Shown piece by piece: positions 17,160 through 37,882 of a stretch of DNA of 64,000 nucleotides. The stretch is from Escherichia phage FL04: the sequence record PP358550; one strand, written 5' to 3'. A program made the translations under genes and the position numbers. The notes under the pieces were generated by a model that saw only the letters and a program-made list of their open reading frames with translations, had not been told where the DNA came from and made no database searches. The stretch's first letter is position 1. The number at the start of each line of letters is the position of its first letter.

Positions 17160-17555
17160 ATGACTGAACGACGCATCACTTCAAATGGTTTGGGTACTCA
17201 TCATGCATGGATGGTTGACCCAGACAAAAATCCTTATAAACTTTACGATACAACAATTAAACCGTGGAATAATGGTGTGTGGAAAACACCACCCACAACA
17301 GCACCTATTATGACTGATCCGAAACCGATTAGCCCGATGGCGGAACCAGTACAGATCAAGCCGTTACCTTACCAGATAACGACGAATAGCATCACCAACA
17401 AACAAGAAAATGATATTGATATGATCTACGAGATGATTAAACTTTGGCGTGATGTTTATCTGGGTGTTCTATGCAACACAGATAAAAGTGCACATGCGGC
17501 AGCGGTGCTGGCATCTCATGCAGTAGACGAAGCCAAAAAGAAATTTAGTAAGTAA
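17160..17555 (+). CDS. hypothetical protein (131 aa)
   Basis: Followed by strong terminator. Confidence 0.55.
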   Translation: MTERRITSNGLGTHHAWMVDPDKNPYKLYDTTIKPWNNGVWKTPPTTAPIMTDPKPISPMAEPVQIKPLPYQITTNSITNKQENDIDMIYEMIKLWRDVYLGVLCNTDKSAHAAAVLASHAVDEAKKKFSK

Positions 17556-17565
17556 CTGACTATTA

Positions 17566-17592
17566 AGCCGATCCTTGTGGTCGGCTTTTTTA
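17566..17592 (+). terminator. rho-independent terminator
   Basis: AGCCGATC-CTTGT-GGTCGGCT hairpin plus TTTTTT; near-identical hairpin in opposite orientation at 28821-28853. Confidence 0.75.
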
Positions 17593-17605
17593 TTTGAAAA
17601 GTTGT

Positions 17606-17634
17606 TTGACTTCCATAATCCAGCATTGCATAAT
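17606..17634 (+). promoter_or_regulatory. sigma70-type early promoter
   Basis: TTGACT-17-CATAAT. Confidence 0.55.
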
Positions 17635-17665
17635 ACACACAGTGAAACAAAAAGGAGATTCAAAA

Positions 17666-17872
17666 ATGAAAGTACGTTGCATTGAAACCGATCACATCAA
17701 TTATAGCTTTGGTGTCGGGTGTGATTATGATGTTGATGTATTCACGGACAATAGCGGAAACACATTTGATGTAGTTCATGGTGACTATATTTGGTTTTAC
17801 TTTGACAAACAACAACTTACTGCAACCAAACGAAACGGTGATCCGGTAGCAAAATTTGAAATAATCGAATAA
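17666..17872 (+). CDS. hypothetical small protein (68 aa); paralog family with 47020 and frameshifted 44474
   Basis: AAGGAGA-N7-ATG; MKVRC...FGVG..YD... KFEIIE pattern shared with 47020..47238. Confidence 0.6.
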   Translation: MKVRCIETDHINYSFGVGCDYDVDVFTDNSGNTFDVVHGDYIWFYFDKQQLTATKRNGDPVAKFEIIE

Positions 17873-20211: not shown

Positions 20212-20222
20212 GAGGTTAAATT

Positions 20223-20495: not shown

Positions 20496-20518
20496 TTTGT
20501 TGACGTGAGGATTATATT

Positions 20519-20710: not shown

Positions 20711-20720
20711 GGATTACATC

Positions 20721-21089
20721 ATGGAAATTCAAAACAATTACGAAAAATGTGTTATTATCAATGATCTGCAACGTCAATTGCATCATTACGAAACCGATTA
20801 TAAAACAGCAACCAAAACCGGAAAGCTGAAAGTGTGGGAAGTCTGGTATAACCGGAACTATCTGGGAAGCATCCACAAACTTGATCGCAGTGATGTTTAT
20901 ACAATGCATGTGGGCGCGTGTGGCGAATCGGATGTAGCATCTAATTTCATGGAAGCACTTGCATTCTATGTAGAATATCTGGTAGACTATATCGAGTTGG
21001 AAGAGGAAGTGGTAGAATTGCTTCCTCCACCGGAAGAAGCGCCGGAAGCAACGATCCTGAAAGCATTAAAGAAAATCTTTGTTAAGTGA
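20721..21089 (+). CDS. hypothetical protein (122 aa)
   Basis: GTGAGGATTACATCATG initiation motif. Confidence 0.55.
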   Translation: MEIQNNYEKCVIINDLQRQLHHYETDYKTATKTGKLKVWEVWYNRNYLGSIHKLDRSDVYTMHVGACGESDVASNFMEALAFYVEYLVDYIELEEEVVELLPPPEEAPEATILKALKKIFVK

Positions 21090-21097
21090 GGTGAACT

Positions 21098-21430
21098 ATG
21101 AAAAATGTACTGATTGTGTGGGAACTGATTCCAGAAACTACTGAATTATATATGGTACAGGTTGATAATAAAGAATTTGAAATTCTGAAACGCGTCAACT
21201 GCAAATATATTAACATTGATGACATGACCCCAGAAATGGACTATGTAAACTATGCTCTCATGCAGCCTAGTTGGATTATGGATGAAACCAAAGCAGACGC
21301 CGAATCGCTGGGTGTGCCGGAAGAAGTATTAGCGAAATGGCATCAATTCAAAGTTGAAATAAAAGAGGGTGAACCGTTTATTCCTAGCGGTATGATCGAT
21401 GCGGTGATTGTAACAGGTTTTCATCTGTAA
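21098..21430 (+). CDS. hypothetical protein (110 aa)
   Basis: GTGAGGTGAACTATG initiation motif. Confidence 0.55.
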   Translation: MKNVLIVWELIPETTELYMVQVDNKEFEILKRVNCKYINIDDMTPEMDYVNYALMQPSWIMDETKADAESLGVPEEVLAKWHQFKVEIKEGEPFIPSGMIDAVIVTGFHL

Positions 21431-21442
21431 GGACATTATACA

Positions 21443-21775
21443 ATGTTTAACTATGACAAATATGAATCATGGAAAGCGACCGAATTGAAAGAGGCAGCGC
21501 GGTTAATCACACCGCGTCTTTATCCGGTGTTGTTTAGCGCCGATAAAGTAACAAGGGAAGTAAACGAGGCTCTATCGGTTTTAGGCTATCTGATCGATAA
21601 AGTAGAGAAAACATCGGTATTCACAAATAGTGTAGAATATACCCGGTATCGAGTGTTTTTAGATTCCTTGCTCGTTGTCATTAAGGCACTAAATGATCAT
21701 AACTACACCATGAACATGACGAAAATAATCGACGAAGCAAGAATTATGACAGAGAATATTTTCGGTAAATTTTGA
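21443..21775 (+). CDS. hypothetical protein (110 aa), tandem paralog of 21890..22213
   Basis: C-terminal ...DEARIMTENIFGKF versus paralog ...NDARKLAENVYGKF. Confidence 0.55.
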   Translation: MFNYDKYESWKATELKEAARLITPRLYPVLFSADKVTREVNEALSVLGYLIDKVEKTSVFTNSVEYTRYRVFLDSLLVVIKALNDHNYTMNMTKIIDEARIMTENIFGKF

Positions 21776-21889
21776 TTATGAAAGATGATGAATCATTGAA
21801 AATTGCACTGGTTATGCTATTACAAGGTATAGAATTAGCAAACCACGAAAAAATGTTGACACAACAGCGTGAAATTATGAGAGGTGATT

Positions 21890-22213
21890 ATGATCGAGTT
21901 TGAAATTGACAACTTTCACGAAAAAGCAGAAGACCTAACCAAAATTTTGATTAGTCGAGGTGCATATAATACGAAAGATATTATAAAAGAAGTTAATGTA
22001 GCGATGGACGCGATCCGAAAGGAATTTAAACATATTTCAGCGATTGGAGAAAATGGTCATCTTGAAGATGTTGAGCTGGTAGCACTGCGACGCTATTACT
22101 TCTTTGTTGATTGCATCATTGATCTAGCTAAAAATTATAGTCATTACATGAAAGATATTGTAAACGATGCACGTAAGTTGGCAGAGAATGTTTACGGGAA
22201 GTTTCCAGAATGA
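21890..22213 (+). CDS. hypothetical protein (107 aa), tandem paralog of 21443..21775
   Basis: ATG 21890 after GAGGTGA; shared C-terminal motif. Confidence 0.55.
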   Translation: MIEFEIDNFHEKAEDLTKILISRGAYNTKDIIKEVNVAMDAIRKEFKHISAIGENGHLEDVELVALRRYYFFVDCIIDLAKNYSHYMKDIVNDARKLAENVYGKFPE

Positions 22214-22458
22214 AATTAGAACAAGCGATTGTATACTTTGAGATGGGCTATGATATTGCTCGTGTAGAGTGGGAAGATGGTGATTTTGTCCGATTGATTG
22301 ATCTTCCAGAAACAGCTATTGCACTGGTCAAAGTAGAAAACGGCATACAACGAAATTACGCGTTTTCTGACGAAGACAAACAAGCCGATGACTGGTACGC
22401 TACCTGTTTTCATCATACAGCGTCAAAATGTGATTCAGGGGCTTCTATGCGCCAATAA
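22210..22458 (+). CDS. hypothetical protein (82 aa)
   Basis: Start overlaps upstream stop; last + strand gene before convergent terminator. Confidence 0.5.
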   Translation: MKLEQAIVYFEMGYDIARVEWEDGDFVRLIDLPETAIALVKVENGIQRNYAFSDEDKQADDWYATCFHHTASKCDSGASMRQ

Positions 22459-22490
22459 AAAGAAGGGGAGGCCGAAAGGCTTCCCCTTTA
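22455..22490. terminator. bidirectional terminator between convergent early (+) and late (-) units
   Basis: GGGGAGGCC-GAAA-GGCTTCCCC hairpin; T-run on - strand side (TTCTTTTTAT), short T-run on + side. Confidence 0.65.
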
Positions 22491-22492
22491 AG

Positions 22493-23149
22493 TTATCTAA
22501 TCCTTCCGAGGATTCTGGCAGATTGATTGCAAAGAGTATCTAAATTCTCAATGTCAATATCCGGTTTATTCTTCCATGAAATGGCGATACTACCAGAATA
22601 GACATTATCGAGATTGAATATAGGACAAGAATACATGAAACCTATATCGATATTCTCTAATTTCTTTTCTCTTGATGGAATATACTGGAAATCTTTATCG
22701 GTAAAATAGGATTTACCTAAAAGATGCCTACGATATTCTTCACTCGTTTTATTGATAGGGAATCCGCCTAAATTTTTTTCATCGATTGTATGCGGTAGCT
22801 TTCCTTCATATGCCACCAAATCAACAAAATAGTTTAGGTTTTTCGGACGAAAACTAAAAACAGCAGAAAAATCGGCATCAGCCGACACATGAACTATCTG
22901 TAACTGCTCCTGTGCTGCATTATCAAAATTGCGGTCTTTCTCTACCTGGAGAACGTGAGCATAAGTCTCATAACGAGTCTCTTTATACAAGGCAAATAAC
23001 TCGTTTTTACTATAGACGACAAATGCTAATATGGACAACACGACGGCAGCAAAAACACGAAGTACGAGCAACTCCGTGCTTTTAGTTGTGAAAATAGCGC
23101 GCAGGACATTTGAGATAGCAAAGTCTTTCCCTTTTTCAGAAACTTGCAT
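22493..23149 (-). CDS. t: holin T
   Basis: 218 aa, same length as T4 holin; conserved blocks EQLQIVH.S..ADFSAV.SFRPKNLNYFVD..AYEGKLP, MYSCP.FNLDN.Y.G, ARILGR; single N-terminal TM. Confidence 0.9.
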   Translation of the reverse strand: MQVSEKGKDFAISNVLRAIFTTKSTELLVLRVFAAVVLSILAFVVYSKNELFALYKETRYETYAHVLQVEKDRNFDNAAQEQLQIVHVSADADFSAVFSFRPKNLNYFVDLVAYEGKLPHTIDEKNLGGFPINKTSEEYRRHLLGKSYFTDKDFQYIPSREKKLENIDIGFMYSCPIFNLDNVYSGSIAISWKNKPDIDIENLDTLCNQSARILGRIR

Positions 23150-23182
23150 ATAATGCCCTAAGATAACTATGACAGTGTACTC

Positions 23183-23422
23183 TTATTTAGGTACTTGACT
23201 ATCACTATTTTTATTTTGCTCGTTGCTATCTTCTGACTGATCTTTATTAAACTCCTTATAAAGTTCTTCCACAAAACGATCATCAATTGGCGTATTGGTA
23301 TAAGCCGCAAGACGACGAGCGCAATAGAAGAAAATTTTAGTGAGCATCTTTTCACTAATTAACTTTGACAATAATTTCATTCCGAAATTAGACAAAGCAC
23401 CAATGACGATATTATAGACCAT
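23183..23422 (-). CDS. hypothetical small protein (79 aa) between adhesin and holin genes
   Basis: AAGGAG 7 nt upstream of ATG on - strand; hydrophobic N-terminus, acidic C-terminus. Confidence 0.5.
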   Translation of the reverse strand: MVYNIVIGALSNFGMKLLSKLISEKMLTKIFFYCARRLAAYTNTPIDDRFVEELYKEFNKDQSEDSNEQNKNSDSQVPK

Positions 23423-23487
23423 AGCCGTTTCTCCTTAGTAGTTTCCCCTTCCGTGGGAGTTTTCCTTAATTCTTTTTATAATTGCGT

Positions 23488-24270
23488 CTAAACAGCCGGT
23501 CCGTAAATAGCTCCGCGATTTTGCCACGTTGGAGAAGACCCTATAACAGCATATCCAGAATCGCCGCCATTATATTCAGATCCTTGACCACGAATATTAC
23601 ATCTACCTCCTGCGGCGCCTACCTCACCACCGCTTCCACCATTATAGATACCGTTCACGGACCCCGAACCGGGCGCATAAAGAGTACCAGCAGTTGCGCC
23701 TGATTGCATATCAATAGATCCGCCCGGCGCACCAAACGGACGCCCACCGCCACCGCCAAAGGTTAATCTCATTTGTGAAAAAGGAGAATAATACCCACCA
23801 CCGCCACCGCCACCGCCACCTGCAATAGCTCCACCATTATTAATTCTTAGTCTCCCACCAATATCATTTTGAATACAATGCCCACCGGCTGATCCAGGAC
23901 CATTGCTACCGCCATTCCCGCCACGACCATACATCGTTACGCCATGTATATTCAACTGAACATATTCATTCGGTGTATCTCCGTACATAAAGAATAAAGG
24001 AACATCTTTAGAATATGATACTAAATCTCCAGTGATATTAAACACTATAGGTGTACTACCTGCTTCAAAGCATCTATCACGGAACCACTGACCGTTGAAG
24101 TTATGGTCTGCACCAAGTGTATGAATAATTTCTCGCGAGCGACCTGCAAATTGACTCATCCAGCAAGGAACACCCAATCTTAATTGACCAGCCGCTTGAC
24201 TCATCCATCTTTGTCCTGTTTCATTTGCGGCTGAACTTCCAATCCAACCAGGAACACCAACTACTGCCAT
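23488..24270 (-). CDS. 38: receptor-recognising tail fibre adhesin gp38 (T2-type, glycine-rich motifs)
   Basis: 260 aa; N-terminus [48 protein letters not shown] matches T2-type gp38 attachment domain; poly-Gly motifs ([11 protein letters not shown]). Confidence 0.88.
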
Positions 24271-24285
24271 AATTTATACTCCAAA

Positions 24286-24300
24286 GGGGGCGTTGCCCCC
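24286..24300 (-). other. GC hairpin (GGGGGC-N3-GCCCCC) in the 37-38 intercistronic region, no U-tract
   Basis: Perfect 6-bp G/C stem; member of a recurring hairpin family (also 30017, 42099, 54848). Confidence 0.5.
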
Positions 24301-24306
24301 TTGTTG

Positions 24307-27105
24307 TTAGAATTTAAAATATTTACTAATTTTGCGAGCAATTTTAGTAAAGAGAGGCGTTTTCAATTCTTTAATTTCTTCACTCATTTCCTGAATAGCC
24401 TTAATTAAAAGAGCATTCACAGCGGAGTTAGAAATTGTCAGAACATCAGATCCATCAACTTCAACTTTAGACACAGCTTCCGGTAATTCTTTTTCAAGAT
24501 CCTGAGCAATAATACCAACTTCGCGTTTAATCACGCTACGATCTTTAATAGACTTAACTTTATCGTAAGTATAAACTTTCAGTCGGCAAACTTTTTCGAC
24601 CGCTCCATATTCTAATTCTTCTTTATTAATCTTGAGACGGGAGTCAGAACGAATATACACATCGCTAAAGCTACCATTTCCTGGTGTATAAAAGAATCCA
24701 TCATGATGGAATTCAAATATAGCTTGTGGGTGTCCAGCATCAGGAGAAGCCTCCGTGGATCCGACGCGAATGATTGCTTGCCCCCACTGTGATGGAATAC
24801 GACGCATACCAAAGTCAACAGCGGTGCTATATCCTTGATTGGTTATAACGCTTCTTGCTTTAAGAATAGGATAATAACTATCTTGACCAACATAACCATG
24901 ATCAACGAATAATGGAGCTTCTACTCGCCATTGGTTGCCCCAATCACCCGGTTGTCTAGCAATCCATCCAGAACCGTTAATGTGTACACGGTCGCGGTTA
25001 ACGTTAACCATTAAGGTATTTTGCGGGTTTAACGCAATCTCACCATTGTTTGTTATATGTACTGCCGCCTGAGTAGCATAGCTATAAAATGCTAGCGAAT
25101 TATCAGCACCACCTTTACCAATATACCAGTTACCATTCCCGTCTACGTCACCGCGAATATGCAAAGCGTTGCTGGCTGTAGTCGATAATACAATAGCATC
25201 ACCCGGACGTTTAATAGTCAATCGACCAGTTGATTCAACTTCACCAAAGAATTTAGTTTTAATTGCACCAGTCGCTAAAGTACGTTCAGTGGAAAAATGA
25301 GCGCCTTTACTATCTTCTAACTGAATAATGTTATCACGAGCGTTATTGCTATCACCCCAATGATTAAACCGGAAATAATCGCGTGATTGCTTACCACCCG
25401 CTTCAAACGTCAGCGTACCTTTACTTAAATTAACATCACCGCTAAAGGTAGCAGCAAGAGAACCGCCTTTTAATACTAAAGCGTTAGCACCGCTAGTGCC
25501 ACCCAAAGTAACATCGCCAGTTTTTAATTGATAGCGGAAAGGTCTATTTGTATTAAAGTTTCCATCTTGATCATTTTCGTCGGTGGAAAGAATATAAAGA
25601 CTTTCACCATCATTACGGAAAATTGTGCCAAATTTACCGCCATACATACGGAATGCATTAGATGAGCGGAATTTAACTTCTGTTTTAAATGTGGTAGTGT
25701 TATTAAGGTTAACAGTAGAGTTAAAATTGGTAGGAGCACCGAAGTTAACAGCACCATTAAAATCTTGTTGAGCTGTCCATGTGTGGCGACCATCTTCAAG
25801 AACAACACGGCGGACTGTGTAAGTTCTATTTCCAGAATTACCGAACACACGAACGACAAAATAACGGTAGTTTGTCTGGGATACAGTACCGCGCCAAACC
25901 TGAACAGTACGCCCTGTGCTAGTGTGTTCACTAGGACCAACGGAAAACATAACCAGGTTTCCGTCAATCGTCCCCCAATCCATATTTGCTGGCATGTTCT
26001 TTATTTTGTTCAAAGGAACGCTAAACATACTACCAGGAACAAAATCAAAGGTTTGCCAATCTAACTCCGCTAATTGAGCTTTAATACCACCCATACCCAA
26101 AGTAATTGGAAGAGAATAAGATGTATATACTTCGTTCCATACACCCCACGCACCACCAGTATATGCACGCTCAAAAATACGATCGCGAGTAGTTGCACCC
26201 GTTCCGGCAGTAGTAAATTTTTGGAAAATAGCACCACCAGAAGCACGCTGTTTAACTTCCAGCAAACCAACAATAACGGCTGGTAAACCTTCACCAGTAG
26301 GACAGTTAATAACGGCATCAGTGCCTAAAATGTTATATAACCCAGGAGTTTTAAAATCATTCAGATCTCCATCATAGAAAGTCGCTGGTGTGCCATGACC
26401 AACCTGCTTCCATTCCTCCCACTTAGGTGCACTAGCATCCCATGCAGCAGCGAGACAACGAGTATAAACCATACCCATGCGGGTAGTATAACGCTGCGTT
26501 CTTGTGTAGAAACCACCTTCAAATATTTCTAAAAATCCTTGTGCGGCTGATCCTTCTTCTGGATAATGGCGATCAAATGATGCGATTGCGCTTGAACTGT
26601 TTCTCCATAAGCCACAATGTTCTAATTCTCCCAAGCTATCAAGGTCAATCGTTTGTGAAAGTGGACGAGTTGACGCTTGAACATTACGCCACACACCCCA
26701 TGGACCATCTACACCATTCCATTTCGCAGACAAAGAACGGATATAAACGTTACCAGACCGAACAGTATAACGCTGAGTGCCAGCAAATTGACCAGCCACA
26801 AATACTTCTAATACACCTACAGCATTCTCTTCTGGGAATTTATTTGCTGGCTGCGCATTTGTTGAAGTTGATTTAGACCAAACGCCAGTAAATTTACCAG
26901 TAGGTCCATAATTATCTAAATTTGCATCAGATGGCAACTCACCGCGAAAGTGTCCCAAAGTAATTACATTATTGCTGTCATCTTTTGTATATAGTTCTCG
27001 ATCCGCTAGGTTAATAGCAAGTTCACCCGGAGTTAGAATATTCGCATCCGGCTTGCGACCTGCCGTACTTGTTCTTTTAAATTGGATTCTCTGTAAATCT
27101 GCCAT
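24307..27105 (-). CDS. 37: long tail fibre distal subunit gp37 with C-terminal intramolecular chaperone (S74-like) domain
   Basis: 932 aa; N-terminus MADLQRIQFKRTSTAGRKPDANILTPGELAINLADRELYTKDD matches gp37; C-terminal SDVYIRS/DSRLKINKEE...AVNALLIKAIQEM resembles autoproteolytic chaperone domain. Confidence 0.88.
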   Translation of the reverse strand: MADLQRIQFKRTSTAGRKPDANILTPGELAINLADRELYTKDDSNNVITLGHFRGELPSDANLDNYGPTGKFTGVWSKSTSTNAQPANKFPEENAVGVLEVFVAGQFAGTQRYTVRSGNVYIRSLSAKWNGVDGPWGVWRNVQASTRPLSQTIDLDSLGELEHCGLWRNSSSAIASFDRHYPEEGSAAQGFLEIFEGGFYTRTQRYTTRMGMVYTRCLAAAWDASAPKWEEWKQVGHGTPATFYDGDLNDFKTPGLYNILGTDAVINCPTGEGLPAVIVGLLEVKQRASGGAIFQKFTTAGTGATTRDRIFERAYTGGAWGVWNEVYTSYSLPITLGMGGIKAQLAELDWQTFDFVPGSMFSVPLNKIKNMPANMDWGTIDGNLVMFSVGPSEHTSTGRTVQVWRGTVSQTNYRYFVVRVFGNSGNRTYTVRRVVLEDGRHTWTAQQDFNGAVNFGAPTNFNSTVNLNNTTTFKTEVKFRSSNAFRMYGGKFGTIFRNDGESLYILSTDENDQDGNFNTNRPFRYQLKTGDVTLGGTSGANALVLKGGSLAATFSGDVNLSKGTLTFEAGGKQSRDYFRFNHWGDSNNARDNIIQLEDSKGAHFSTERTLATGAIKTKFFGEVESTGRLTIKRPGDAIVLSTTASNALHIRGDVDGNGNWYIGKGGADNSLAFYSYATQAAVHITNNGEIALNPQNTLMVNVNRDRVHINGSGWIARQPGDWGNQWRVEAPLFVDHGYVGQDSYYPILKARSVITNQGYSTAVDFGMRRIPSQWGQAIIRVGSTEASPDAGHPQAIFEFHHDGFFYTPGNGSFSDVYIRSDSRLKINKEELEYGAVEKVCRLKVYTYDKVKSIKDRSVIKREVGIIAQDLEKELPEAVSKVEVDGSDVLTISNSAVNALLIKAIQEMSEEIKELKTPLFTKIARKISKYFKF

Positions 27106-27140
27106 TTTATAAAATCCTTAACGGTTGTTAGAATAATATT

Positions 27141-27167
27141 ATTTAGAAAAGCGGGGATAATCCCCGC
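27141..27167 (-). terminator. rho-independent terminator after gp36 (- strand)
   Basis: GCGGGGA-TTA-TCCCCGC hairpin followed on - strand by TTTTCTAAAT. Confidence 0.6.
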
Positions 27168-27172
27168 TAGAA

Positions 27173-28663
27173 TTAGAAAGTACCAAAATCAATTACCGCA
27201 TTAAGCGGAACAGCGCCAACATCATCAGGAGTTGGTTTGTGTCCTTCGTGGTATAATTCAAATGTATCGGTGTCCTGAGTATTGTTGCGTGATTTAACGA
27301 AAATAATTTTAGAATCATGTGTGATGCCTAGTTTCTCGTGCGCTTTAATATCACTAACACGATGAATCATTGCTGTGCCATCTAAGCTATTAAGTCCAGC
27401 GTAGCAATTATCACCATTATAGTTAGCTTTTGCGGTACGAACGCCGTTTGCCGCCGGAACAGTTAACGGTCCTGTCATGGTATCGCCAGTTACGTTAACA
27501 TAGCGAATATCAGCCAATTTACGGTGATCTACATAGTTCCATGCAGTCCATGATTCATTAGAACACGAACGCCAGCACATCGGATGGTCAATAGATTCAG
27601 GATAATACACCTGAACAATTCGACGAGTACCGACCGCATCTTCTGGGCGATATACCATCAAAACGCCGTTATAATAGCTATCAGACGGTTTATTAGTACC
27701 TGATCCAGCATTTTCCACACGATAGATACCGCGATTAATAAGAGTGTTCCAATCAACGTTTCCAATGATTGTTGGATTTGCTACCATTGATTTTTTCTCA
27801 AAGTAGCTCAAACGAACCAATTCATTCGGACCAGCAGGATCGTTTGTCGCCAACATTCTAGGCGCTTGCAAGTTACCTTCCATAATATCACCAGCACGTT
27901 TAACCTGTGCATCATTGGTGACATTACCTAGTCCAACATCGGCTTTAGTTGGTTTATTGTTGGTGTGATAAAAACGACCTTCTTTGCCATTAACAAAAAT
28001 GGTAGGCTCATCTTTGCTACGGAATACCAACGTATCAAGAACGTTACCATAATAGATCTTAGTCGCATCAAAATTAATTAAATCACGTTCCCTTGCAATT
28101 AATTTCGAATCAACCGATAGTTTAACAGTGACAGTGTTTAAATTATATGTTCCTGTGAGAGTATCACCGCGACGAGACACCAAATCTAAATCATTATTCG
28201 TTGGTTTATTAACAGGGCTATAGACGCGTTGACCTGTGTCTTTAATGGTTGTCCCTTCGATAGTCCCTTTAGACTTAAATTCGCCCGTTGTGGTGTCAAT
28301 ATACGCCATAATAACGCCATCACGGGCATTAACAAAGCCTATTGACTTCCATGAATGCAAACCCCAGCTTACGCCGTCAAAATTAGCAGCGTCGCTCTGA
28401 CCTTTAAAGATACCATTCTTTTTGGTTTCCCCAGCCGATGCGCTACCTACGCTTAAACCTTCCTCGAAATGAACTTGCTTTTGAAATGTGCCACCTTCGG
28501 ATGCACTAACAGCATCAAAATCGGTAGCCGAAGGTCTATCAAAAGCGGTATAGATTTTATGACCTTTGTAGAAAAGCTGATCCCCCGCTGGCTGGATCGT
28601 CAAGTTTCCTTGCGTCCAAATGGGAGATCCACCTACAGTAGATCCATATTTCAAATCTGCCAT
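27173..28663 (-). CDS. 36: long tail fibre hinge/distal connector gp36 (enlarged, 496 aa)
   Basis: N-terminus MADLKYGSTVGGSPIWTQGN...PAGD matches T4 gp36 N-terminus; C-terminal extension relative to T4 (221 aa). Confidence 0.8.
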   Translation of the reverse strand: MADLKYGSTVGGSPIWTQGNLTIQPAGDQLFYKGHKIYTAFDRPSATDFDAVSASEGGTFQKQVHFEEGLSVGSASAGETKKNGIFKGQSDAANFDGVSWGLHSWKSIGFVNARDGVIMAYIDTTTGEFKSKGTIEGTTIKDTGQRVYSPVNKPTNNDLDLVSRRGDTLTGTYNLNTVTVKLSVDSKLIARERDLINFDATKIYYGNVLDTLVFRSKDEPTIFVNGKEGRFYHTNNKPTKADVGLGNVTNDAQVKRAGDIMEGNLQAPRMLATNDPAGPNELVRLSYFEKKSMVANPTIIGNVDWNTLINRGIYRVENAGSGTNKPSDSYYNGVLMVYRPEDAVGTRRIVQVYYPESIDHPMCWRSCSNESWTAWNYVDHRKLADIRYVNVTGDTMTGPLTVPAANGVRTAKANYNGDNCYAGLNSLDGTAMIHRVSDIKAHEKLGITHDSKIIFVKSRNNTQDTDTFELYHEGHKPTPDDVGAVPLNAVIDFGTF

Positions 28664-28696
28664 AAAGTAACCTCAAAAATTAGTTATAGTTCCGAG

Positions 28697-28704
28697 TATT
28701 TATA
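28697..28704 (-). promoter_or_regulatory. T4-type late promoter TATAAATA (for gp36)
   Basis: Exact TATAAATA on - strand about 35 nt upstream of gp36 ATG. Confidence 0.6.
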
Positions 28705-28820
28705 GAATGTTAACAAAATATCGCTTCGCGACGTGCCGTAGGCACTGACTAATTTTTAACCGAAACAAATTTCTATTATTCTAAAGATCTTTCTTCGTTT
28801 TGGTTACATTTTAACCAACT

Positions 28821-28853
28821 GTATAAAAATAAAGCCGACCACATGGATCGGCT
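28821..28853 (-). terminator. rho-independent terminator after gp35 (- strand)
   Basis: Hairpin AGCCGACC-ACATG-GATCGGCT (reverse complement of the 17566 terminator) followed on - strand by TTATTTTTAT. Confidence 0.7.
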
Positions 28854-28864
28854 TGTTAAAAATG

Positions 28865-30004
28865 TTAATCAACATCGAACTCTTTAAAGTTGTTGGATGT
28901 GATGTGTTTATTATCTCTAGGCAGTTTAAGAAGACTCATTACAGGGTTAGTAAAATCACCGTTATCCTGAATATGAGTTGTTCTAACACCATTAACACCA
29001 AATGAAGTAGGACCAGTAGTTTTGACGACTCCACTGATCGGCGTTATTAGTATGTTTCTAATTTTAACAATACCTTCATTGGAGTTGGTTGGATATCTGA
29101 TACAACCAGTTACTACACTATCAACTCCTTCCGGTACGGTATAGACGGCTTCAAACTTTTCCCATTGGTCTTTTTTGCTGGCATTGTATCGAACACCAGT
29201 TTGATATTGTCCATCGGTGAAGTAGTTGTGATAGAAACGCGCTGTTACGTTGGCTGCGGCTGCGGCACTATCACGGAACAATTCAAAGGATATTGATAGT
29301 TTGTCACCTGCCTTTATGTTAAAATCCTCAAGTGGGGCGCTGGTCTCATCATGAGGCCATTGTATTAGCTCGAAATGTTCGGCATCTTCGCTAACATACT
29401 CAACCGGATAATCTAAAAATCGTTGTGGTGTTCCTGTTATAGCAAGATCATCTATAGTATCATAGACTTTCTCAATTTGTATAGATGAATCTTGTCCTTC
29501 CCCGTTGGTCGCTTGCATCCCTTCACACACAATTTTACCCATTTTAGTAGAATAAATTGCTGCATAGGATACACGAGGCATTTGCTGTAGCAAAATGTGA
29601 TTCGGGAATGATACAGATCCCATCTTAGAAAATACAACATCACTTATCGGATCTGCAAACAATTCTCCATGCGTTGCCATCGCAATGATATAGTCACCTT
29701 TCAGCAAAGAAAGATAATCACGCATTGCCAAAACAGCACCGCGACCATAGAATACCTTTTCTTCGTGTAGTTGTCCAGTTGGAGTAAGAACTTTAAAATT
29801 TAGGCCATTTTCATAGCCAGTGCCAACGATCTCCACTCCATTAAATCTAATCCTTGCTGGTTTGGTAGAATCCGCATTAGATCCGCGTACTTCCAGCTTA
29901 TACATCACAGAGTTATTTTCTGAAATGCTGGTAAATGTCGCAGAGTCTTCGTCGAAATGCGCAAACCTAATTCCAGTGTTGCGTAATTCTATATCTTGTG
30001 TCAT
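28865..30004 (-). CDS. 35: long tail fibre hinge protein gp35
   Basis: 379 aa (T4 gp35 372 aa); position between gp34 and gp36. Confidence 0.7.
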   Translation of the reverse strand: MTQDIELRNTGIRFAHFDEDSATFTSISENNSVMYKLEVRGSNADSTKPARIRFNGVEIVGTGYENGLNFKVLTPTGQLHEEKVFYGRGAVLAMRDYLSLLKGDYIIAMATHGELFADPISDVVFSKMGSVSFPNHILLQQMPRVSYAAIYSTKMGKIVCEGMQATNGEGQDSSIQIEKVYDTIDDLAITGTPQRFLDYPVEYVSEDAEHFELIQWPHDETSAPLEDFNIKAGDKLSISFELFRDSAAAAANVTARFYHNYFTDGQYQTGVRYNASKKDQWEKFEAVYTVPEGVDSVVTGCIRYPTNSNEGIVKIRNILITPISGVVKTTGPTSFGVNGVRTTHIQDNGDFTNPVMSLLKLPRDNKHITSNNFKEFDVD

Positions 30005-30016
30005 AATAACCCCATA

Positions 30017-30032
30017 GGGGGCTTTCGCCCCC
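30017..30032 (-). other. GC hairpin GGGGGC-GAAA-GCCCCC (GNRA loop on - strand) between gp34 and gp35, no U-tract
   Basis: Perfect stem; 12 nt upstream of gp35 ATG. Confidence 0.5.
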
Positions 30033-30038
30033 CTTTAA

Positions 30039-33000
30039 TTAGTCTTCCCAGATAAAGTCTACGGTACGAGTCAGATTATTGGCGATGATTTTAACATTAC
30101 CAACTTTGATCCAATCACGAACCGTCATAGAGTTCATTAAACCACCTTCTGCAACTACTGCCCCGATTTCCTGAGCGGTAGGCTTATTCTGTTTGGTGTA
30201 AATTTCACCCCATGCGGTCCATTGACCACCAGTACCGGAACGGATATAATGTTTATGAGTACCATCAGGGGACCAAAGCTGGGTAAGCCCGTCCTCGTCA
30301 GTACCCCATTGCATCAGAGTACCGTTTTTCTTCTCTGGATAAGTTTCTTTGATGTTCTGGGTAGTAACTCGCATATTCCAGAAACCGATGTTACCGATTG
30401 CCGGAGCGGTTGCCGCGCTAGCTTCATGCTTAACAGAAACAATAGGCGCATTATCCATAGTCAGCTTACCGACCATTGTATCGCCAGCATTCTTAACAAA
30501 CTGACGGTTAAGAACTTCGTCAGCGTTTCCTGCGTGTACGATCTGATATTTCTGTCCGGAGATCTCTGTAGTTAACGTTTGAGAACCTGCCTTGATGTTA
30601 ACACTTCCACCGTGACCGATATTCAGCATACCATCTGGGGAACGAGTCATTGCCGGATTAGACTGGTCAACAATGTATAAACCGCCTTGTTTCGCATACA
30701 GGTTACGACCTGCAATAAAGTCTCTATATGCTGTCGCGTCGCCATTGTGTTCCATAGCAAAGGCGTAATGCTCGACGACTCCACCATCATTGATTTTACC
30801 GAAAGCAATAGCATCACTATCAACAACTTGCGCTGTTCCAGTACCACCAACGATAATAGACCAAGAGTTTTTCATGCCTTCCGATGCGGTTGTGCCATGC
30901 AGAGTAATTCCGGTGTGACCGTCAACTCCACGCTCCCCCAACACCAGATGACCATTACTCGGAACATCGGTCGAGTTCTTAGTCACAGACAGAGTTTCAA
31001 AGGAACCTGATTTTAAGCACTCTAAATCGCCCTTCACGTTAACGTTTTTATTAAACGTGTAATTGCTCTCTATGATCTGGTCAATGTCTCTACGCGCCCA
31101 TTTAGCGGCCTCTACGTTACCCAATTTCAAACTATTCTGAGCGGTTGCCATCTTAGGTAAGAAATTAGCAAGTGCGTAGTTTAATCCTTTCGGAGTTACC
31201 GCAATCCCGTCATGCTGGTAGTTTCCTAGCTCTTGAGTAGAACCTTGCAGATTATCACCAACAAAACAGTTTTCCTGAGTAGCAACTTTCAAGAAACCAC
31301 GACGCGCTTCGGTTGCTTTCCATGTATCCTCTGTCTGAACAACATATTTGAAGTTCTTCGGAGAAATTGCTACATTAGCCAGTGCACCAGCCACGGTTTC
31401 GGCTTGAGTACCAACTCGGATAATACCTTCTTTACCTTCGGTGGCCTTTTTGCCTTGCAGCTTTTTAGGAGTGATGATTGTAGTATCATCTTGACCAGCA
31501 TCCGTAAGCTGAGTAGTAGCAACTTTAGCGACACCTTTTGTGTCTTCGGTTGCATCCAGACCGCTGATCATGATACCTTGCCACAAATCACCAGTAAGGT
31601 TAAGCCCCTGAGTCGGATCTACTTTCAAACGCTGTGCATTCTCAAAGAAGGTTTTAATCTTCAATGGGGTAGAAATGCGAGCATCGTCACGACCTGCGTC
31701 AAATTCCGACTGAGTTGCAATTTCTGCTAAACCGTGTAAAGTTTCCGTAGCACGGCGAGTATGCAGTTTTTTAGGTGTGATAATATGGTTATCACTTTGG
31801 CCTAAGTTAGTTTCTTCCTGCGTAGCAATTTCAGCGATACCAGTACGGGATTCGGTAGCAGTACGCTTGGTTAACGTGCGAGTAGTGATCAGCAATGCAT
31901 CTTGCGGGGTTGATTCAGTAGCCCCTTGCACTTCCGCGTCAGTTGCCAGATACCCAACACCACGAGAAGTTTCAGTAGCTTTAACTTCGTTGATGTTTTG
32001 CGGAGTAACGATTTTAGCGTGGTCGTCGATGTTATAGATCCCTGTACCAGCTTCACCCCTTCGAGCGGCAGCATTACCGCCTACCTGAACAATTTCAGCG
32101 ATACCAGCAAGATCCTCGGACGCGCGACGTTCTTCTAACTTCTTAGGAGTGATTGCGCGGGTATCGTCTAAACCTTCGTTTGTTTCATGTTGAGTTGCAA
32201 TTTCCATCACACCACGACGGTCTTCGGTAGCAACACAGTCATTTAACTTTTTAGGTGTAACGATAACATCATCCAGGAAGCTGGAACCAGTATCTTGATG
32301 CGTTTCCGCTTGAGTTGCAATGCGAGCAATACCGCGTCGAGTTTCGTTGGCTGTTTTATTAGCCAGAACCTTTGGGGTCACCGCAACTTCGTCGCTAGGA
32401 TTATCTTCATGGTTTTTGTTTGTTTCATCCTGGGTAGCCAGTGCAATTACACCAACACGATCTTTACGAGTCGGATCTACTCGTTCTACAATCGGGTGAG
32501 CATGTGCCACCAACCAGTATTTCTTACCATCATCACCTTCTGAATAAGAGAACTCCAGATAAGGTACATAATCATTTGCAGCGTTGAAAGACAATTCAGA
32601 CACTCCAGTCCATGTATCGGTCCCATTGAATGGGTACTCGCTACGCTTAGGAAACTGAACCATGTTTTTCTGCATAAGGATTTTTGTATCCTCTTCTGAG
32701 GTAATGATTCGGCAAGTCTGGTTTCCGTGCATATACTGCATAGAAACTTGGATACGATCACCCGGCTCGACATTGGTCGGTAAAGTCAAGGTAACATCAC
32801 GATCACCAAATACTGCAACATAGCTATTAGGGGATAAGCGAGTATCACTAATGATAGGATTCAAGCGAACAGACTGATCGCCATCCCACAAACGCCATAA
32901 GTTTTCCGGTTTGTCAAAGATGAATACACCATGACCGCTACGCTTACCAACAATTTCTTTTACCCCGAAAGTACCGATCGATTGTTCTTGCGCACCTTCA

Positions 33001-33779
33001 TGTACTTTTACTGTAACATGGTTGGTTGCAGTCAATCCGTCAAGATCGGTAGTCTGGATCATATCACCGTTATTAGCAAACTTAGGAAGCATCAAAACAA
33101 TGTTACCTAAAGAACTACGACGGAATACCTGATCACCGTTTTGCATCTGAATCGGATCAATAGATGGCTGTGCATATACCCCGCGCGGCTCCGTTCCCGT
33201 CTGGTAAACGTGCCAGCGATTGCGAACAAAAATGAAGTAGTTCATTGCATAAGGGGTAGTACAATACCATTTGCGGTTGTTTACCACACCGTTATGATAG
33301 AACTCATGACCAGCCGCAAGGAACGATAACTCATTAACACCGCACTTGCCACCGATATCTTTTACTGTTATAGTGTCGCCCTCTGCCGGATTAGTAGGCA
33401 TTGAGAATGTCAAGTTTGCAAACTGACAGTCCGCTGCGATATAATCACCGGACTTTAAAGGAGTATCGCCGGAAGTTGCTGCAACATAATCCCAACGTGG
33501 GTCCGTGCGCAGTGCTTGCCATTTAGTCGGGTCAAAGTCACCTGCTGGTTTTGCGATATCTTCTTTTGCATAATACGGACGGTTTTGATAGATTGTAGTT
33601 CCGTATTGATCATAACCGCGAGTTGTGTCATACTGAGTAATACCATTATGGTAATTGAAAAATTCAACGTTGACCGCATCCGTTGATGTGTTTTTATCTG
33701 CGTATGCTACATTGACGACCTTTTCATTACCAGCGTCAAAGCCAAATGTGGCCTTGAAATGTTGAGAAAAATCTGCCAT
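30039..33779 (-). CDS. 34: long tail fibre proximal subunit gp34
   Basis: 1246 aa; N-terminus MADFSQHFKATFGFDAGNEKVVNVAYADKNTSTDAVNVEF resembles T4 gp34; internal repeats of type G(I/V)AxIATQxET. Confidence 0.88.
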   Translation of the reverse strand: MADFSQHFKATFGFDAGNEKVVNVAYADKNTSTDAVNVEFFNYHNGITQYDTTRGYDQYGTTIYQNRPYYAKEDIAKPAGDFDPTKWQALRTDPRWDYVAATSGDTPLKSGDYIAADCQFANLTFSMPTNPAEGDTITVKDIGGKCGVNELSFLAAGHEFYHNGVVNNRKWYCTTPYAMNYFIFVRNRWHVYQTGTEPRGVYAQPSIDPIQMQNGDQVFRRSSLGNIVLMLPKFANNGDMIQTTDLDGLTATNHVTVKVHEGAQEQSIGTFGVKEIVGKRSGHGVFIFDKPENLWRLWDGDQSVRLNPIISDTRLSPNSYVAVFGDRDVTLTLPTNVEPGDRIQVSMQYMHGNQTCRIITSEEDTKILMQKNMVQFPKRSEYPFNGTDTWTGVSELSFNAANDYVPYLEFSYSEGDDGKKYWLVAHAHPIVERVDPTRKDRVGVIALATQDETNKNHEDNPSDEVAVTPKVLANKTANETRRGIARIATQAETHQDTGSSFLDDVIVTPKKLNDCVATEDRRGVMEIATQHETNEGLDDTRAITPKKLEERRASEDLAGIAEIVQVGGNAAARRGEAGTGIYNIDDHAKIVTPQNINEVKATETSRGVGYLATDAEVQGATESTPQDALLITTRTLTKRTATESRTGIAEIATQEETNLGQSDNHIITPKKLHTRRATETLHGLAEIATQSEFDAGRDDARISTPLKIKTFFENAQRLKVDPTQGLNLTGDLWQGIMISGLDATEDTKGVAKVATTQLTDAGQDDTTIITPKKLQGKKATEGKEGIIRVGTQAETVAGALANVAISPKNFKYVVQTEDTWKATEARRGFLKVATQENCFVGDNLQGSTQELGNYQHDGIAVTPKGLNYALANFLPKMATAQNSLKLGNVEAAKWARRDIDQIIESNYTFNKNVNVKGDLECLKSGSFETLSVTKNSTDVPSNGHLVLGERGVDGHTGITLHGTTASEGMKNSWSIIVGGTGTAQVVDSDAIAFGKINDGGVVEHYAFAMEHNGDATAYRDFIAGRNLYAKQGGLYIVDQSNPAMTRSPDGMLNIGHGGSVNIKAGSQTLTTEISGQKYQIVHAGNADEVLNRQFVKNAGDTMVGKLTMDNAPIVSVKHEASAATAPAIGNIGFWNMRVTTQNIKETYPEKKNGTLMQWGTDEDGLTQLWSPDGTHKHYIRSGTGGQWTAWGEIYTKQNKPTAQEIGAVVAEGGLMNSMTVRDWIKVGNVKIIANNLTRTVDFIWED

Positions 33780-33807: not shown

Positions 33808-33815
33808 TATTTATA
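33808..33815 (-). promoter_or_regulatory. T4-type late promoter TATAAATA (for gp34)
   Basis: Exact TATAAATA on - strand about 30 nt upstream of gp34 ATG. Confidence 0.6.
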
Positions 33816-37847: not shown

Positions 37848-37858
37848 TGAATTTTACA

Positions 37859-37882
37859 GCCTCCCTCCGGGGAGGCTTTTTT
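37859..37882 (+). terminator. rho-independent terminator after gene 32
   Basis: GCCTCCC-TCCG-GGGAGGC hairpin plus TTTTTT. Confidence 0.75.

What the first reader, a model, noticed from the sequence alone, without database searches (positions are those of the whole stretch)
28821..28853. Same terminator hairpin used in both orientations at two distant loci
The hairpin AGCCGATC-CTTGT-GGTCGGCT plus T-run after ORF 17160 (+ strand, 17566-17592) reappears as its near-exact reverse complement after gp35 on the - strand. Sharing of a 21-nt terminator module between early and late transcription units suggests transfer of regulatory cassettes within the genome.
Basis: seen in the sequence. Interest (0 to 1): 0.4.

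Follow-up and report, generated by a model that had tools for sequence, protein, structure and literature searches.

The report
Twin terminator hairpins in an RB49-like phage
Two almost identical transcription-stop hairpins sit on opposite strands of an RB49-like (Krischvirus) phage genome, one ending an early gene block and one ending the gp34-gp35 tail-fibre unit; they are very probably old copies of one another and belong to a known kind of repeated regulatory element, so the finding is real but fairly ordinary.

Summary
Observation confirmed. AAGCCGATCCTTGTGGTCGGCTTT (17565-17588, +) recurs as AAGCCGATCCATGTGGTCGGCTTT (28854-28831, -): 23/24 identical, the only difference in the loop. The window is a Krischvirus (RB49-like T4 relative). 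Each hairpin starts 9-10 nt after a co-oriented stop codon (ORF267 homologue; gp35), is followed by a T-run only on its sense strand, and folds at about -12.7 kcal/mol, so both are read as unidirectional intrinsic terminators. All 58 Krischvirus records hold both copies. In the 18-19 site 2 and 8 site 1 sequences read, stems are unchanged except one U.G to C.G change. Each site keeps its own loop, so there is no ongoing gene conversion. T2 also has a terminator, then a late promoter, between genes 35 and 36, with an unrelated stem. Site 1 is the stem-loop of a published PeSL early promoter/terminator cassette; site 2 has no promoter part, and its flanks share nothing with site 1. In a complete genome the pair is the joint-tightest of a lineage-specific terminator family (AGCC..TCC-N4-GG..GGCT; 9 of 43 terminators, against 0 of 16 in T2). 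Verdict: an old copy of a ~24-nt hairpin, not a whole cassette. New member of a known kind; low to moderate interest.

The parts
17160..17555 (+). ORF267 homologue (131 aa, Krischvirus-specific ORFan). It is the last gene of the conserved early block rIIB...gp52-ORF268-ORF267, and its stop TAA is at 17553-17555.
   Evidence: tblastn hits in only the 58 Krischvirus records.
17565..17587 (+). Site 1 hairpin AAGCCGATC-CTTGT-GGTCGGCTT: a 9-bp stem with one U.G pair and a 5-nt loop, starting 9 nt after the stop codon.
   Evidence: RNA fold -12.7 kcal/mol, z=-3.8. Identical in the 8 site 1 sequences read. Annotated 'terminator' in several GenBank records.
17588..17595 (+). T-tract of site 1 (TTTTATTT). 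Together with the two stem T's it gives U6AU3. The run length varies among relatives.
17597..17668 (+). PeSL early promoter and leader directly downstream of site 1: -35 TTGACT 17606-17611, -10 CATAAT 17629-17634, SD GGAG 17654-17657, ATG 17666 of the next small gene (17666-17872).
   Evidence: for the promoter scan. for the PeSL profile hit at 17597-17662 (E=5.4e-7). One search shows that three different genes follow this cassette in different phages.
28865..30004 (-). gp35 (long tail fibre proximal hinge connector, 379 aa). Its stop TAA is at 28867-28865.
28832..28854 (-). Site 2 hairpin AAGCCGATC-CATGT-GGTCGGCTT, starting 10 nt after the gp35 stop.
   Evidence: Fold -12.6 kcal/mol, z=-4.1. 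ARNOLD-annotated terminator at the orthologous position in MK327935 and MK327932. 23/23 identical in the divergent relative L016, against 113/190 for the rest of the spacer.
28821..28831 (-). T-rich tail of site 2 (TATTTTTATAC). With the two stem T's this gives U3AU5.
28697..28704 (-). Late promoter TATAAATA for gp36 (ATG at 28663). It shows that the unit downstream of site 2 has its own promoter.
   Evidence: Conserved in L016. T2 has the same layout.
33808..33815 (-). Late promoter TATAAATA upstream of gp34 (30039-33779), the likely start of the gp34-gp35 transcript that site 2 ends.
37858..37877 (+). A more distant member of the same terminator family inside the window: AGCCTCCC-TCCG-GGGAGGCT plus T5. 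It follows ORF 36873-37847 and precedes a PeSL promoter (37901-37959).

Best explanation
Both elements are Rho-independent (intrinsic) transcription terminators, each working in one direction only, for the strand on which its upstream gene lies.

Site 1 stops early, sigma-70-driven transcription of the conserved gp52-ORF268-ORF267 block. It sits just before the next early promoter and forms the stem-loop part of a PeSL cassette of the subclass 'stem-loop upstream of the -35 box'.

Site 2 stops late transcription of gp34-gp35, which starts at the TATAAATA promoter before gp34. This lets gp36 and the genes after it be expressed from their own late promoter about 130 nt further on.

The two hairpins are identical because they descend from one ancestral hairpin of roughly 24-30 nt that was copied within the genome before the known Krischvirus phages diverged. 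Since then each copy has been kept by selection for pairing, and only the loop has drifted.

They are the joint-closest pair of a lineage-specific family of terminators with the theme AGCC(G)(A)TCC-tetraloop-GG(G)(T)(C)GGCT plus a T-run.

Shown here: sequence identity, structure, placement, conservation, family structure, and PeSL membership of site 1. Inferred: actual termination in vivo, the copying event, and its direction.
For: Identity and non-chance.

Terminator anatomy:
- 9-bp stem, 5 G-C pairs, T-run within 0-2 nt, on the sense strand only.
- Fold energies of -12.7 and -12.6 kcal/mol, with 0 of 200 shuffles folding as well.
- The hairpins start 9 and 10 nt after co-oriented stop codons.
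- Other annotators' terminator predictions fall at both sites.

Transcription-unit logic: exact late promoters lie only before gp34 and gp36 in this region. T2 has the same order, gene 35 stop - hairpin plus T-run - TATAAATA - gene 36, with an unrelated stem.

Selection on pairing:
- All 58 Krischvirus records hold both copies.
- In the sequences read, stems are unchanged except kaaroe site 2, where T to C turns U.G into C.G.
- Loops vary: CATGT or CTCGT at site 2, CTTGT at site 1.
- In L016 (gp35 86% identical) the hairpin is 23/23 identical against 113/190 for the rest of the spacer, p=1.6e-5.

PeSL membership of site 1: a profile built from the window's PeSLs hits 17597-17662 at E=5.4e-7. 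The published subclass definition fits. Homology between phages breaks inside the cassette leader, with three alternative downstream genes.

Descent rather than convergence:
- The exact hairpin occurs as an independent terminator only about three times in 596 Gb of bacterial genomes.
- It is absent from 5,426 E. coli genomes.
- The family is present in pEJ01 (9/43) and absent in T2 (0/16), which has its own GGGAGCC family.
- Sites 1 and 2 share GG where the same-stem relative at pEJ01 136268 has GGG.
Against: - There is no direct evidence of termination: I found no transcript 3'-end data for any Krischvirus.
- Site 2's U-tract is interrupted (UUUAUUUUU, and UUAAUUUUU in L016), so it may be leaky.
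- The family-versus-control statistics are modest (p=0.045 and 0.025, one control genome, 100 kb).
- An AGCC...GGCT stem base is common in enterobacterial terminators generally (my own knowledge, e.g. the trp terminator), so part of the family resemblance may be convergent design.
- Nothing outside the roughly 24-30 nt is shared, so no trace of the copying mechanism survives and its direction cannot be determined.
Confidence: 0.72

Rival explanations
1. Convergence. The two hairpins arose independently and reached the same sequence because this stem is a preferred solution for terminators in this phage-host system. For example, it might be recognised by a factor, or a U.G pair at a fixed position might make the hairpin strand-specific.
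For: The same 23-mer does arise independently as a terminator in Burkholderiales, Bdellovibrionales and Nomurabacteria MAGs, and as a hairpin in a Campylobacter inovirus prophage. About a third of pEJ01 terminators share the AGCC..GGCT base, and many share TCC-N4-GGG with a U.G pair. That pattern could reflect a design preference.
Against: The independent occurrences amount to about three terminators in 596 Gb, far too rare to expect two in one 165-kb genome. The identity includes the loop (4 of 5), which is demonstrably free to vary between strains, and the unusual GG/bulge geometry. T2, on the same host, does not use this stem at all. The host genome has no copy.
Confidence: 0.12
2. Active homogenisation. 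The two copies are kept identical by continuing recombination or gene conversion between them (as PeSLs recombine), or they serve as inverted-repeat 'linkers' for inversion or exchange of the 11-kb segment between them (hyperplastic region, holin, distal tail-fibre genes).
For: PeSLs in RB49 and phi1 do recombine, and even form mini-circles (PMC2839356). Site 1 is a hotspot of gene replacement. The segment between the copies contains a swapped adhesin module.
Against: Each site has its own diagnostic loop in every genome read: site 1 CTTGT, site 2 CATGT or CTCGT, and never CTTGT at site 2. The kaaroe stem change is confined to site 2. Gene order and orientation between the sites are the same in the six relatives fetched across both sites. 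The boundaries of the adhesin swap (about 23518 and about 27000) are not at the hairpins. Twenty-four bp is very short for homologous exchange.
Confidence: 0.05
3. Not terminators. The hairpins act mainly at another level, for example as 3' stabilisers or processing sites of mRNA, or as DNA-level structures (protein-binding or cruciform sites containing a GATC Dam site).
For: Stable 3' hairpins also protect mRNA from exonucleases, by established knowledge. The stem contains GATC and the phage encodes a Dam methylase. The gp35-gp36 spacer holds three further conserved hairpins of unknown role.
Against: The T-run lies on the sense strand only, and the placement right after stop codons and right before promoters is the classic terminator arrangement. 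T2 has an unrelated but canonical terminator at the same position. The U.G to C.G change preserves RNA pairing. Family members lacking GATC (GCCGTCC, GCCATCC) occupy equivalent positions. RNA stabilisation would be an additional role, not an alternative one.
Confidence: 0.08
4. Chance resemblance of two generic GC-rich terminator stems.
For: None beyond the fact that terminators share general design.
Against: None of 100 shuffles gave two matches. The pair lies about 6 sd above the mean of all hairpin pairs in the window.
Confidence: 0.01

Closest known systems
PeSL (promoter-early stem-loop) cassettes of RB49/phi1/JSE-type phages (Arbiol et al. 2010, PMC2839356; Comeau et al. 2014, PMC4122927)
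   Same: Same phage group. PeSLs are repeated intergenic modules that combine a stem-loop terminator with a sigma-70 early promoter, and they are proposed to move and to mediate gene shuffling. [quoted passage not shown] It matches a PeSL profile, and it marks a point where different phages carry different downstream genes.
   Different: Site 2 has no promoter, lies on the opposite (late) strand inside the conserved tail-fibre block rather than a hyperplastic region, and does not match the PeSL profile. The stem (AGCCGATC/GGTCGGCT) is not the Gn-loop-Cn type described as typical for RB49/phi1 PeSLs. The text of the two papers does not mention this hairpin or its twin.
Intrinsic terminator between genes 35 and 36 of T-even phages (read here in T2, LC348380)
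   Same: Same position and same order of parts: gene 35 stop, GC-rich hairpin with a wobble pair, T-run, late promoter TATAAATA, gene 36. It supports the functional reading of site 2.
   Different: The stem is unrelated (AGGGAGCC-TTCG-GGTTCCCT) and the spacer is 62 nt instead of 200 nt. T2's hairpin belongs to T2's own GGGAGCC family rather than the AGCC..TCC family.
Recurrent extra-stable tetraloop hairpins, C(UUCG)G and GNRA, in T4 intercistronic regions (Tuerk et al. 1988; my own knowledge, not checked here)
   Same: These are families of similar stable hairpins reused at many intergenic sites of a T4-type genome. Several members of the Krischvirus family carry C(GAAA)G or C(UUCG)G loops.
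   Different: Sites 1 and 2 have a 5-nt loop (or a UUGU/AUGU tetraloop with a bulged U), not a classic UNCG or GNRA loop. The resemblance here lies in the stem as well as the loop.
Bidirectional intrinsic terminators at convergent gene ends
   Same: A nearly palindromic hairpin seen on both strands of one genome.
   Different: Here there are two separate loci, each with a T-run on one side only. Neither lies at the convergence point, which is near 24.3 kb.

Membership tests
Rho-independent (intrinsic) terminator | GC-rich stem-loop that is markedly more stable than shuffled sequence | tested here: met
   Nine pairs with five G-C. Fold energies -12.7 and -12.6 kcal/mol, z -3.8 and -4.1, with 0 of 200 shuffles as stable.
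Rho-independent (intrinsic) terminator | U-rich tract immediately 3' of the stem on the transcribed strand | tested here: met
   Site 1 is GGCTT-TTTTATTT. Site 2 is GGCTT-TATTTTTAT, interrupted by one A. No T-run on the opposite strand at either site.
Rho-independent (intrinsic) terminator | Located just downstream of, and co-oriented with, the end of a transcription unit | tested here: met
   The hairpins start 9 and 10 nt after the stops of ORF267 (+) and gp35 (-). Each is followed by a promoter for the next unit.
Rho-independent (intrinsic) terminator | Pairing, rather than sequence, conserved in evolution | tested here: inconclusive
   Stems are unchanged in the genomes read, loops vary, and there is one pair-preserving U.G to C.G change. 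Within the wider family there is a G-C to A-T double change. Divergence is too low for real covariation statistics.
Rho-independent (intrinsic) terminator | RNA 3' ends form at the U-tract in vivo or in vitro | not testable with these tools
   No transcript-end data for Krischvirus were found in the paper library.
PeSL cassette (Arbiol 2010) | Strong sigma-70-like early promoter (-35/-10) with an AT-rich upstream region | tested here: met
   This row is for site 1: TTGACT-17-CATAAT at 17606-17634, preceded by TTTTATTTGAAAAG.
PeSL cassette (Arbiol 2010) | Site 2: sigma-70-like early promoter next to the stem-loop | tested here: not met
   The promoter scan lists no site on the - strand between 28830 and 28700. 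The next promoter is a late TATAAATA.
PeSL cassette (Arbiol 2010) | Stem-loop in one of the five published positions relative to the promoter | tested here: met
   Site 1's stem-loop ends 18 nt upstream of the -35 box, within the AT-rich region, which is a published subclass. The same layout occurs at 37858 and 46641 in the window.
PeSL cassette (Arbiol 2010) | Sequence similarity to other PeSLs of the genome (promoter, leader, Shine-Dalgarno) | tested here: met
   This row is for site 1. An iterated nhmmer profile from the window's PeSLs hits 17597-17662 at E=5.4e-7, one of 23 hits, all on the + strand. The site 2 region gives no hit even at E<50 with filters off, and its flanks are no more similar than shuffles.
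PeSL cassette (Arbiol 2010) | Association with insertion, deletion or replacement of neighbouring ORFans between related phages | tested here: met
   This row is for site 1. Three different genes follow the cassette in different phages, and homology breaks within the leader. At site 2 the flanking genes gp35 and gp36 are the same in all genomes read.
Bidirectional terminator | A-tract upstream and T-tract downstream, so that both strands read hairpin plus U-run | tested here: not met
   Only AA lies upstream at either site. The scan flags each hairpin on one strand only.
Any Rfam RNA family | Covariance-model match at or near the gathering score | tested here: not met
   No match at gathering threshold in the whole window. 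Nothing at E<=1 at site 2. Only far sub-threshold hits at site 1, the best 15.6 bits against a gathering score of 49.5.

The most novel reading that the evidence does not exclude
Krischvirus genomes contain a self-propagating family of about 25-nt terminator hairpins (AGCC..TCC-tetraloop-GG..GGCT plus a U-run). The hairpins would be copied on their own, without a promoter or a gene, onto either strand and into both early and late units. Stem-loops from PeSL-type cassettes could then seed regulatory sites inside conserved core-gene blocks such as the tail-fibre operon. The site 1 / site 2 twins would be the most recent surviving copy event. That would imply a copy mechanism for very short structured modules, for example template switching at hairpins or short-patch conversion, distinct from the homologous PeSL-PeSL exchange already described.
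Probability: 0.2. Interest if true: 0.45.

Novelty: new member of a known kind. Interest (0 to 1): 0.22.

Why it matters
The finding gives a concrete, datable example of a regulatory hairpin being reused between the early and late programmes of a T4-type phage. It extends the PeSL idea of repeated, shuffled promoter/terminator modules in RB49-like phages in two ways: to a promoter-less copy on the opposite strand, and to a position inside a conserved structural operon.

The practical value is modest. It improves terminator annotation for the genus, and it flags as probably spurious a small ORF annotated across the site 2 hairpin in SSG23 and Delraymugoa. UPWr_E1 carries a different, opposite-strand call at the same place, which I did not assess. 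It also identifies a lineage-specific terminator family that could be used for phage engineering or for testing how short structured elements spread. It does not change the understanding of termination itself.

Tried and rejected
1. Site 2 as a decayed PeSL. By eye, AGTTGGTTAAA...ACCAAAACGAAGAAAGATC resembles the PeSL consensus. I rejected this because the PeSL profile gives no hit at E<50 with --max, and flank alignments are no better than dinucleotide shuffles (P=0.90 and 0.95).

2. Host origin of the hairpin. There is no match in 5,426 complete E. coli genomes.

3. Ongoing gene conversion between the two copies. I looked in the one-mismatch class of genomes for a site 2 with site 1's loop (CTTGT). 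All the mismatches were in the flanks.

4. A third exact copy. Four records showed three BLAST 'places' for the site 2 query. In pEJ01 the third place is a diverged family member at 156450 with site-2-like flanks, not another exact copy.

5. A protein-coding reading. An ATG in the CATGT loop opens a 22-codon ORF that overlaps small CDSs annotated across the hairpin in SSG23 and Delraymugoa (frame not checked). That ATG is absent from the six genomes read that have loop CTCGT, so the ORF is probably spurious.

6. A bidirectional terminator. There is no T-run on the antisense side.

7. Known RNA families. None match.

8. The hairpins as boundaries of the horizontally acquired adhesin module. The boundaries lie at about 23518 and about 27000, not at the hairpins.

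9. Dating the event with outgroups. ORF267 exists only in Krischvirus. gp35 drops from at least 90% to about 30% identity outside the genus. Only the 9-kb metagenomic contig L002/L016 bridges the gap, and it covers site 2 only.

10. Published transcript data for RB49-type phages. None were found.

Full report
WHAT THE WINDOW IS. Megablast of 26000-31000 and of 17000-29500 against the phage collection finds Krischvirus genomes (RB49-like relatives of T4) at 92-97% identity. Gene names below follow RB49 (NC_005066).

THE OBSERVATION.
- Site 1 reads AAGCCGATCCTTGTGGTCGGCTTT at 17565-17588 on the + strand.
- Site 2 reads AAGCCGATCCATGTGGTCGGCTTT at 28854-28831 on the - strand.
- They are 23/24 identical, and the one difference is in the loop.
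- None of 100 dinucleotide-preserving shuffles of the window contains two matches.
- The repeat finder lists the pair as a 30-nt, 90% inverted repeat.
- In my own census of 48 terminator-like hairpins in the window, this pair is the top of 1,127 pairs: 22/24 in register, against a mean of 6.65 and sd of 2.49.
- The similarity stops at the hairpin and the first T's. Sixty nt downstream and 40 nt upstream align no better than shuffles (P=0.90 and 0.95).

ANATOMY AND CONTEXT.

Site 1:
- It begins 9 nt after the TAA of ORF 17160-17555. This is the homologue of RB49p267, an ORFan found only in the 58 Krischvirus records.
- That ORF ends the conserved early block rIIB...gp52-ORF268-ORF267.
- The hairpin has 9 pairs including one U.G, and is followed by TTTTATTT.
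- Eighteen nt further on comes a sigma-70 promoter, TTGACT-17-CATAAT (17606-17634), then GGAG and the ATG of a 68-codon gene at 17666.

Site 2:
- It begins 10 nt after the TAA of gp35 (28865-30004, - strand; 100% identical to the W115 proximal hinge connector).
- It is followed by TATTTTTAT.
- About 130 nt further on comes the late promoter TATAAATA (28704-28697), then gp36 (ATG at 28663).
- In this region the only other exact TATAAATA on the - strand is at 33815-33808, just before gp34. Site 2 therefore sits at the 3' end of a gp34-gp35 late unit.

Both sites:
- As RNA they fold at -12.7 and -12.6 kcal/mol, and none of 200 shuffles folds as well.
- Neither has a T-run on the opposite strand, and the scan flags each on one strand only.
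- So these are two unidirectional terminators, each in the sense orientation for its own genes. It is not one element working in both orientations.
- Independent annotators marked terminators at both positions in several GenBank records.

COMPARISON WITH T2. In T2, gene 35 is followed by AGGGAGCC-TTCG-GGTTCCCT plus TTTTTCTT, then TATAAATA, then gene 36. A terminator followed by a late promoter between genes 35 and 36 is thus an old functional arrangement. What is special in Krischvirus is only that the stem sequence there matches the one after ORF267.

CONSERVATION.
- A 36-nt site 1 query and a 41-nt site 2 query each find all 58 Krischvirus records. Both sites are present in every one.
- I read site 2 in 18 Krischvirus genomes plus one divergent relative, and site 1 in 8 sequences.
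- Site 1 is AAGCCGATCCTTGTGGTCGGCTT in every sequence read.
- Site 2 has loop CATGT (12 genomes plus L016) or CTCGT (6 genomes).
- The only stem change is in kaaroe, where T to C converts the U.G pair to C.G, so pairing is kept.
- No genome has site 1's loop at site 2. The copies therefore evolve independently and are not being homogenised.
- In the metagenomic contig L002/L016 (gp35 86% identical), the hairpin is 23/23 identical. The rest of the gp35-gp36 spacer is 113/190 identical (Fisher p=1.6e-5).

RELATION TO PeSLs.
- The window is full of the 'promoter-early stem-loop' cassettes described for RB49/phi1 (Arbiol et al. 2010, PMC2839356; Comeau et al. 2014, PMC4122927).
- The repeat finder recovers several PeSL families.
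- An iterated nhmmer profile finds 23 cassettes, all on the + strand. One of them is 17597-17662, directly after site 1 (E=5.4e-7).
[quoted passage not shown] Site 1 fits that subclass.
- Homology between phages breaks inside the cassette leader, and three different genes follow it in different phages. That is the published signature of PeSL-mediated module exchange.
- Site 2 is different. It has no sigma-70 promoter and no profile hit even at E<50, and it lies on the other strand inside a conserved structural operon.
- The text of the two papers does not mention either junction. The figures and supplements were not available to me.

IS COMMON DESCENT NEEDED?
- A scan of IMG/VR found the exact hairpin, with a free loop base, in seven contigs. 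Two are Krischvirus site 1, one is L002 site 2, and four are a filamentous-phage-like element. The latter carries Zot, pIV and integrase genes, and its host is Campylobacter.
- A scan of 596 Gb of bacterial genomes gave ten hits. Two were that prophage. Five lay inside coding sequence reading K-P-I-L-V-V-G. Three were independent terminators with T-runs, in Burkholderiales, Bdellovibrionales and Nomurabacteria.
- So this hairpin can arise by convergence, but only at about three terminators per 596 Gb. That is far too rare to account for two in one 165-kb genome.
- E. coli itself has no copy.

A WIDER FAMILY.
- The complete genome of pEJ01 (joined) has no third exact copy.
- It does have six further terminators on the theme AGCC(G)(A)TCC-NNNN-GG(G)(T)(C)GGCT plus a T-run, on both strands and in both early and late regions.
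- One of these is AGCCGATCC-GAAA-GGGTCGGCT (after nrdD, followed by a PeSL promoter), which has the same stem with one more G.
- Another is AAGCCAATCC-GAAA-GGGTTGGCT, which has site-2-like flanks and a G-C to A-T double change.
- A third case is the pair AGCCGTCC-TTGT/TTCT-GGGCGGCT, which also lies on opposite strands and ties with the site 1 / site 2 pair for the top similarity score (0.89).
- Of 43 strict terminators in pEJ01, 15 have the AGCC..GGCT base and 9 belong to the family.
- In 100 kb of T2 the figures are 1 and 0 of 16 (p=0.025 and 0.045). T2 has its own small GGGAGCC-loop-GGCTCCC family instead.
- Sites 1 and 2 are the joint-tightest pair in pEJ01, and they share GG where the same-stem relative has GGG.
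- Lineage-specific stem families argue for descent with modification rather than a universal optimum. The statistics are modest, though, and part of the resemblance (A-tract, GCC clamp, stable tetraloops) is ordinary terminator design.
- A third, more distant family member lies in the window at 37858-37877.

CONCLUSION. Both elements are best read as intrinsic terminators. Site 1 closes an early unit and is part of a PeSL. Site 2 closes the gp34-gp35 late unit. Their near-identity reflects an old copy of a hairpin of roughly 24-30 nt, fixed before the genus radiated and since kept by selection on pairing. This is a new member of a known kind, namely the repeated regulatory stem-loops of RB49-type phages. 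Termination itself, and the mechanism and direction of copying, remain inferred.

Noticed in passing
window 30017-30032 (sense on - strand, between gp34 stop 30039 and gp35 ATG 30004) and 42099-42114 (sense on + strand, between ORFs 40861-42093 and 42162-44405): A second hairpin is shared on opposite strands in the same sense orientation: AAAGGGGG(G)C-GAAA-GCCCCC. It has a GNRA-type loop and no T-run after it on the sense strand, so it is probably not a terminator. A related hairpin with a T-run, GGGGGCGTTAAGCCCC+T5, lies at 59966-59982.
   Followed up: partly
window 28818-28800, 28745-28733 and 28732-28720 (all - strand): The 200-nt gp35-gp36 spacer (62 nt in T2) holds three more conserved hairpins. 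TTGGTTA-N5-TAACCAA keeps its stem while its loop varies between strains, with one G.U substitution in SSG23. GTGCC-TAC-GGCAC and TCGC-GAA-GCGA (the GCGAAGC mini-hairpin) plus ATTTTGTT are both conserved even in the divergent L016. Their role is unknown: possibly a second, tandem terminator or an RNA-processing or stability element just upstream of the late promoter.
   Followed up: partly
window about 23518-26930 (C-terminal part of gp37, 24307-27105, and the gene downstream of it): This stretch is about 94% identical to Tequatrovirus phages (Yersinia fPS-65, PYps15T, T4_ev240, RB3 and others). Most Krischvirus genomes match the window only from about 27000 onward. The phage therefore carries a T-even-type distal tail-fibre/adhesin module acquired by recombination.
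   Followed up: partly
L003, L004, L006, L007 (IMG/VR) and L020, L028 (Campylobacter MAGs): A filamentous-phage-like integrated element (Zot-like, pIV-like, integrase) carries the same hairpin, AAGCCGATCCGTGTGGTCGGCTT. It lies between a 126-aa ORF and a 76-aa coat-like ORF, and no T-run follows it.
   Followed up: partly
L019 1685-1707 (Burkholderiales MAG JAGWTR010000009.1): The exact 23-mer of site 1, loop included (AAGCCGATCCTTGTGGTCGGCTT), follows what looks like the 3' end of a tRNA or tmRNA gene (..GGTTCAAATCC..CCA). Similar hairpins with T-runs occur in Bdellovibrionales and Nomurabacteria MAGs. These look like independent convergent terminators.
   Followed up: no
window 17597-17720 and the orthologous regions of L009-L013 and L018: Three different genes follow the site 1 PeSL in different Krischvirus phages: ATGAAAGTACG.. 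in the window, pEJ01 and SSG23; ATGAGCAACAA.. in RB49 and Skers; ATGAAATCTAT.. in ECD7. Homology breaks inside the PeSL leader after CATAATACAC. The length of the T-run after the hairpin also varies between phages.
   Followed up: yes
window 28842-28774 (- strand), with small CDSs annotated across the hairpin in SSG23, Delraymugoa and UPWr_E1: Some GenBank records annotate a small CDS across the site 2 hairpin. In the window, an ATG in the loop CATGT opens a 22-codon ORF at this place. I did not check that the annotated SSG23 and Delraymugoa CDSs use this frame. That ATG is absent in the six genomes read with loop CTCGT, so the small ORF is probably spurious. The UPWr_E1 call is on the opposite strand and I did not assess it.
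   Followed up: yes
window 19185-19201, 55328-55344, 56893-56910, 59440-59456, and sites 1 and 2: GATC (Dam) sites recur inside stem-loop stems: in PeSL stems GGGGATC..GATCCCC and in the AGCCGATCC hairpins. The phage encodes a Dam methylase (annotated in pEJ01). I did not test whether methylation matters for these structures.
   Followed up: no
whole window: All 23 PeSL cassettes found by the profile lie on the + strand. Exact TATAAATA occurs only three times in the window, fewer than the 5.2 expected by chance, yet two of the three sit directly upstream of late tail-fibre genes. No tRNA or other Rfam family reaches threshold in the window.
   Followed up: partly
L044/L045 (T2) 83158, 52410 and L039 1672-1691: T2 has its own small family of similar terminators: (A)GGGAGCC-loop-GG(C/T)TCCC(T). 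It includes the one after gene 35, so reuse of lineage-specific stems is not confined to Krischvirus.
   Followed up: partly
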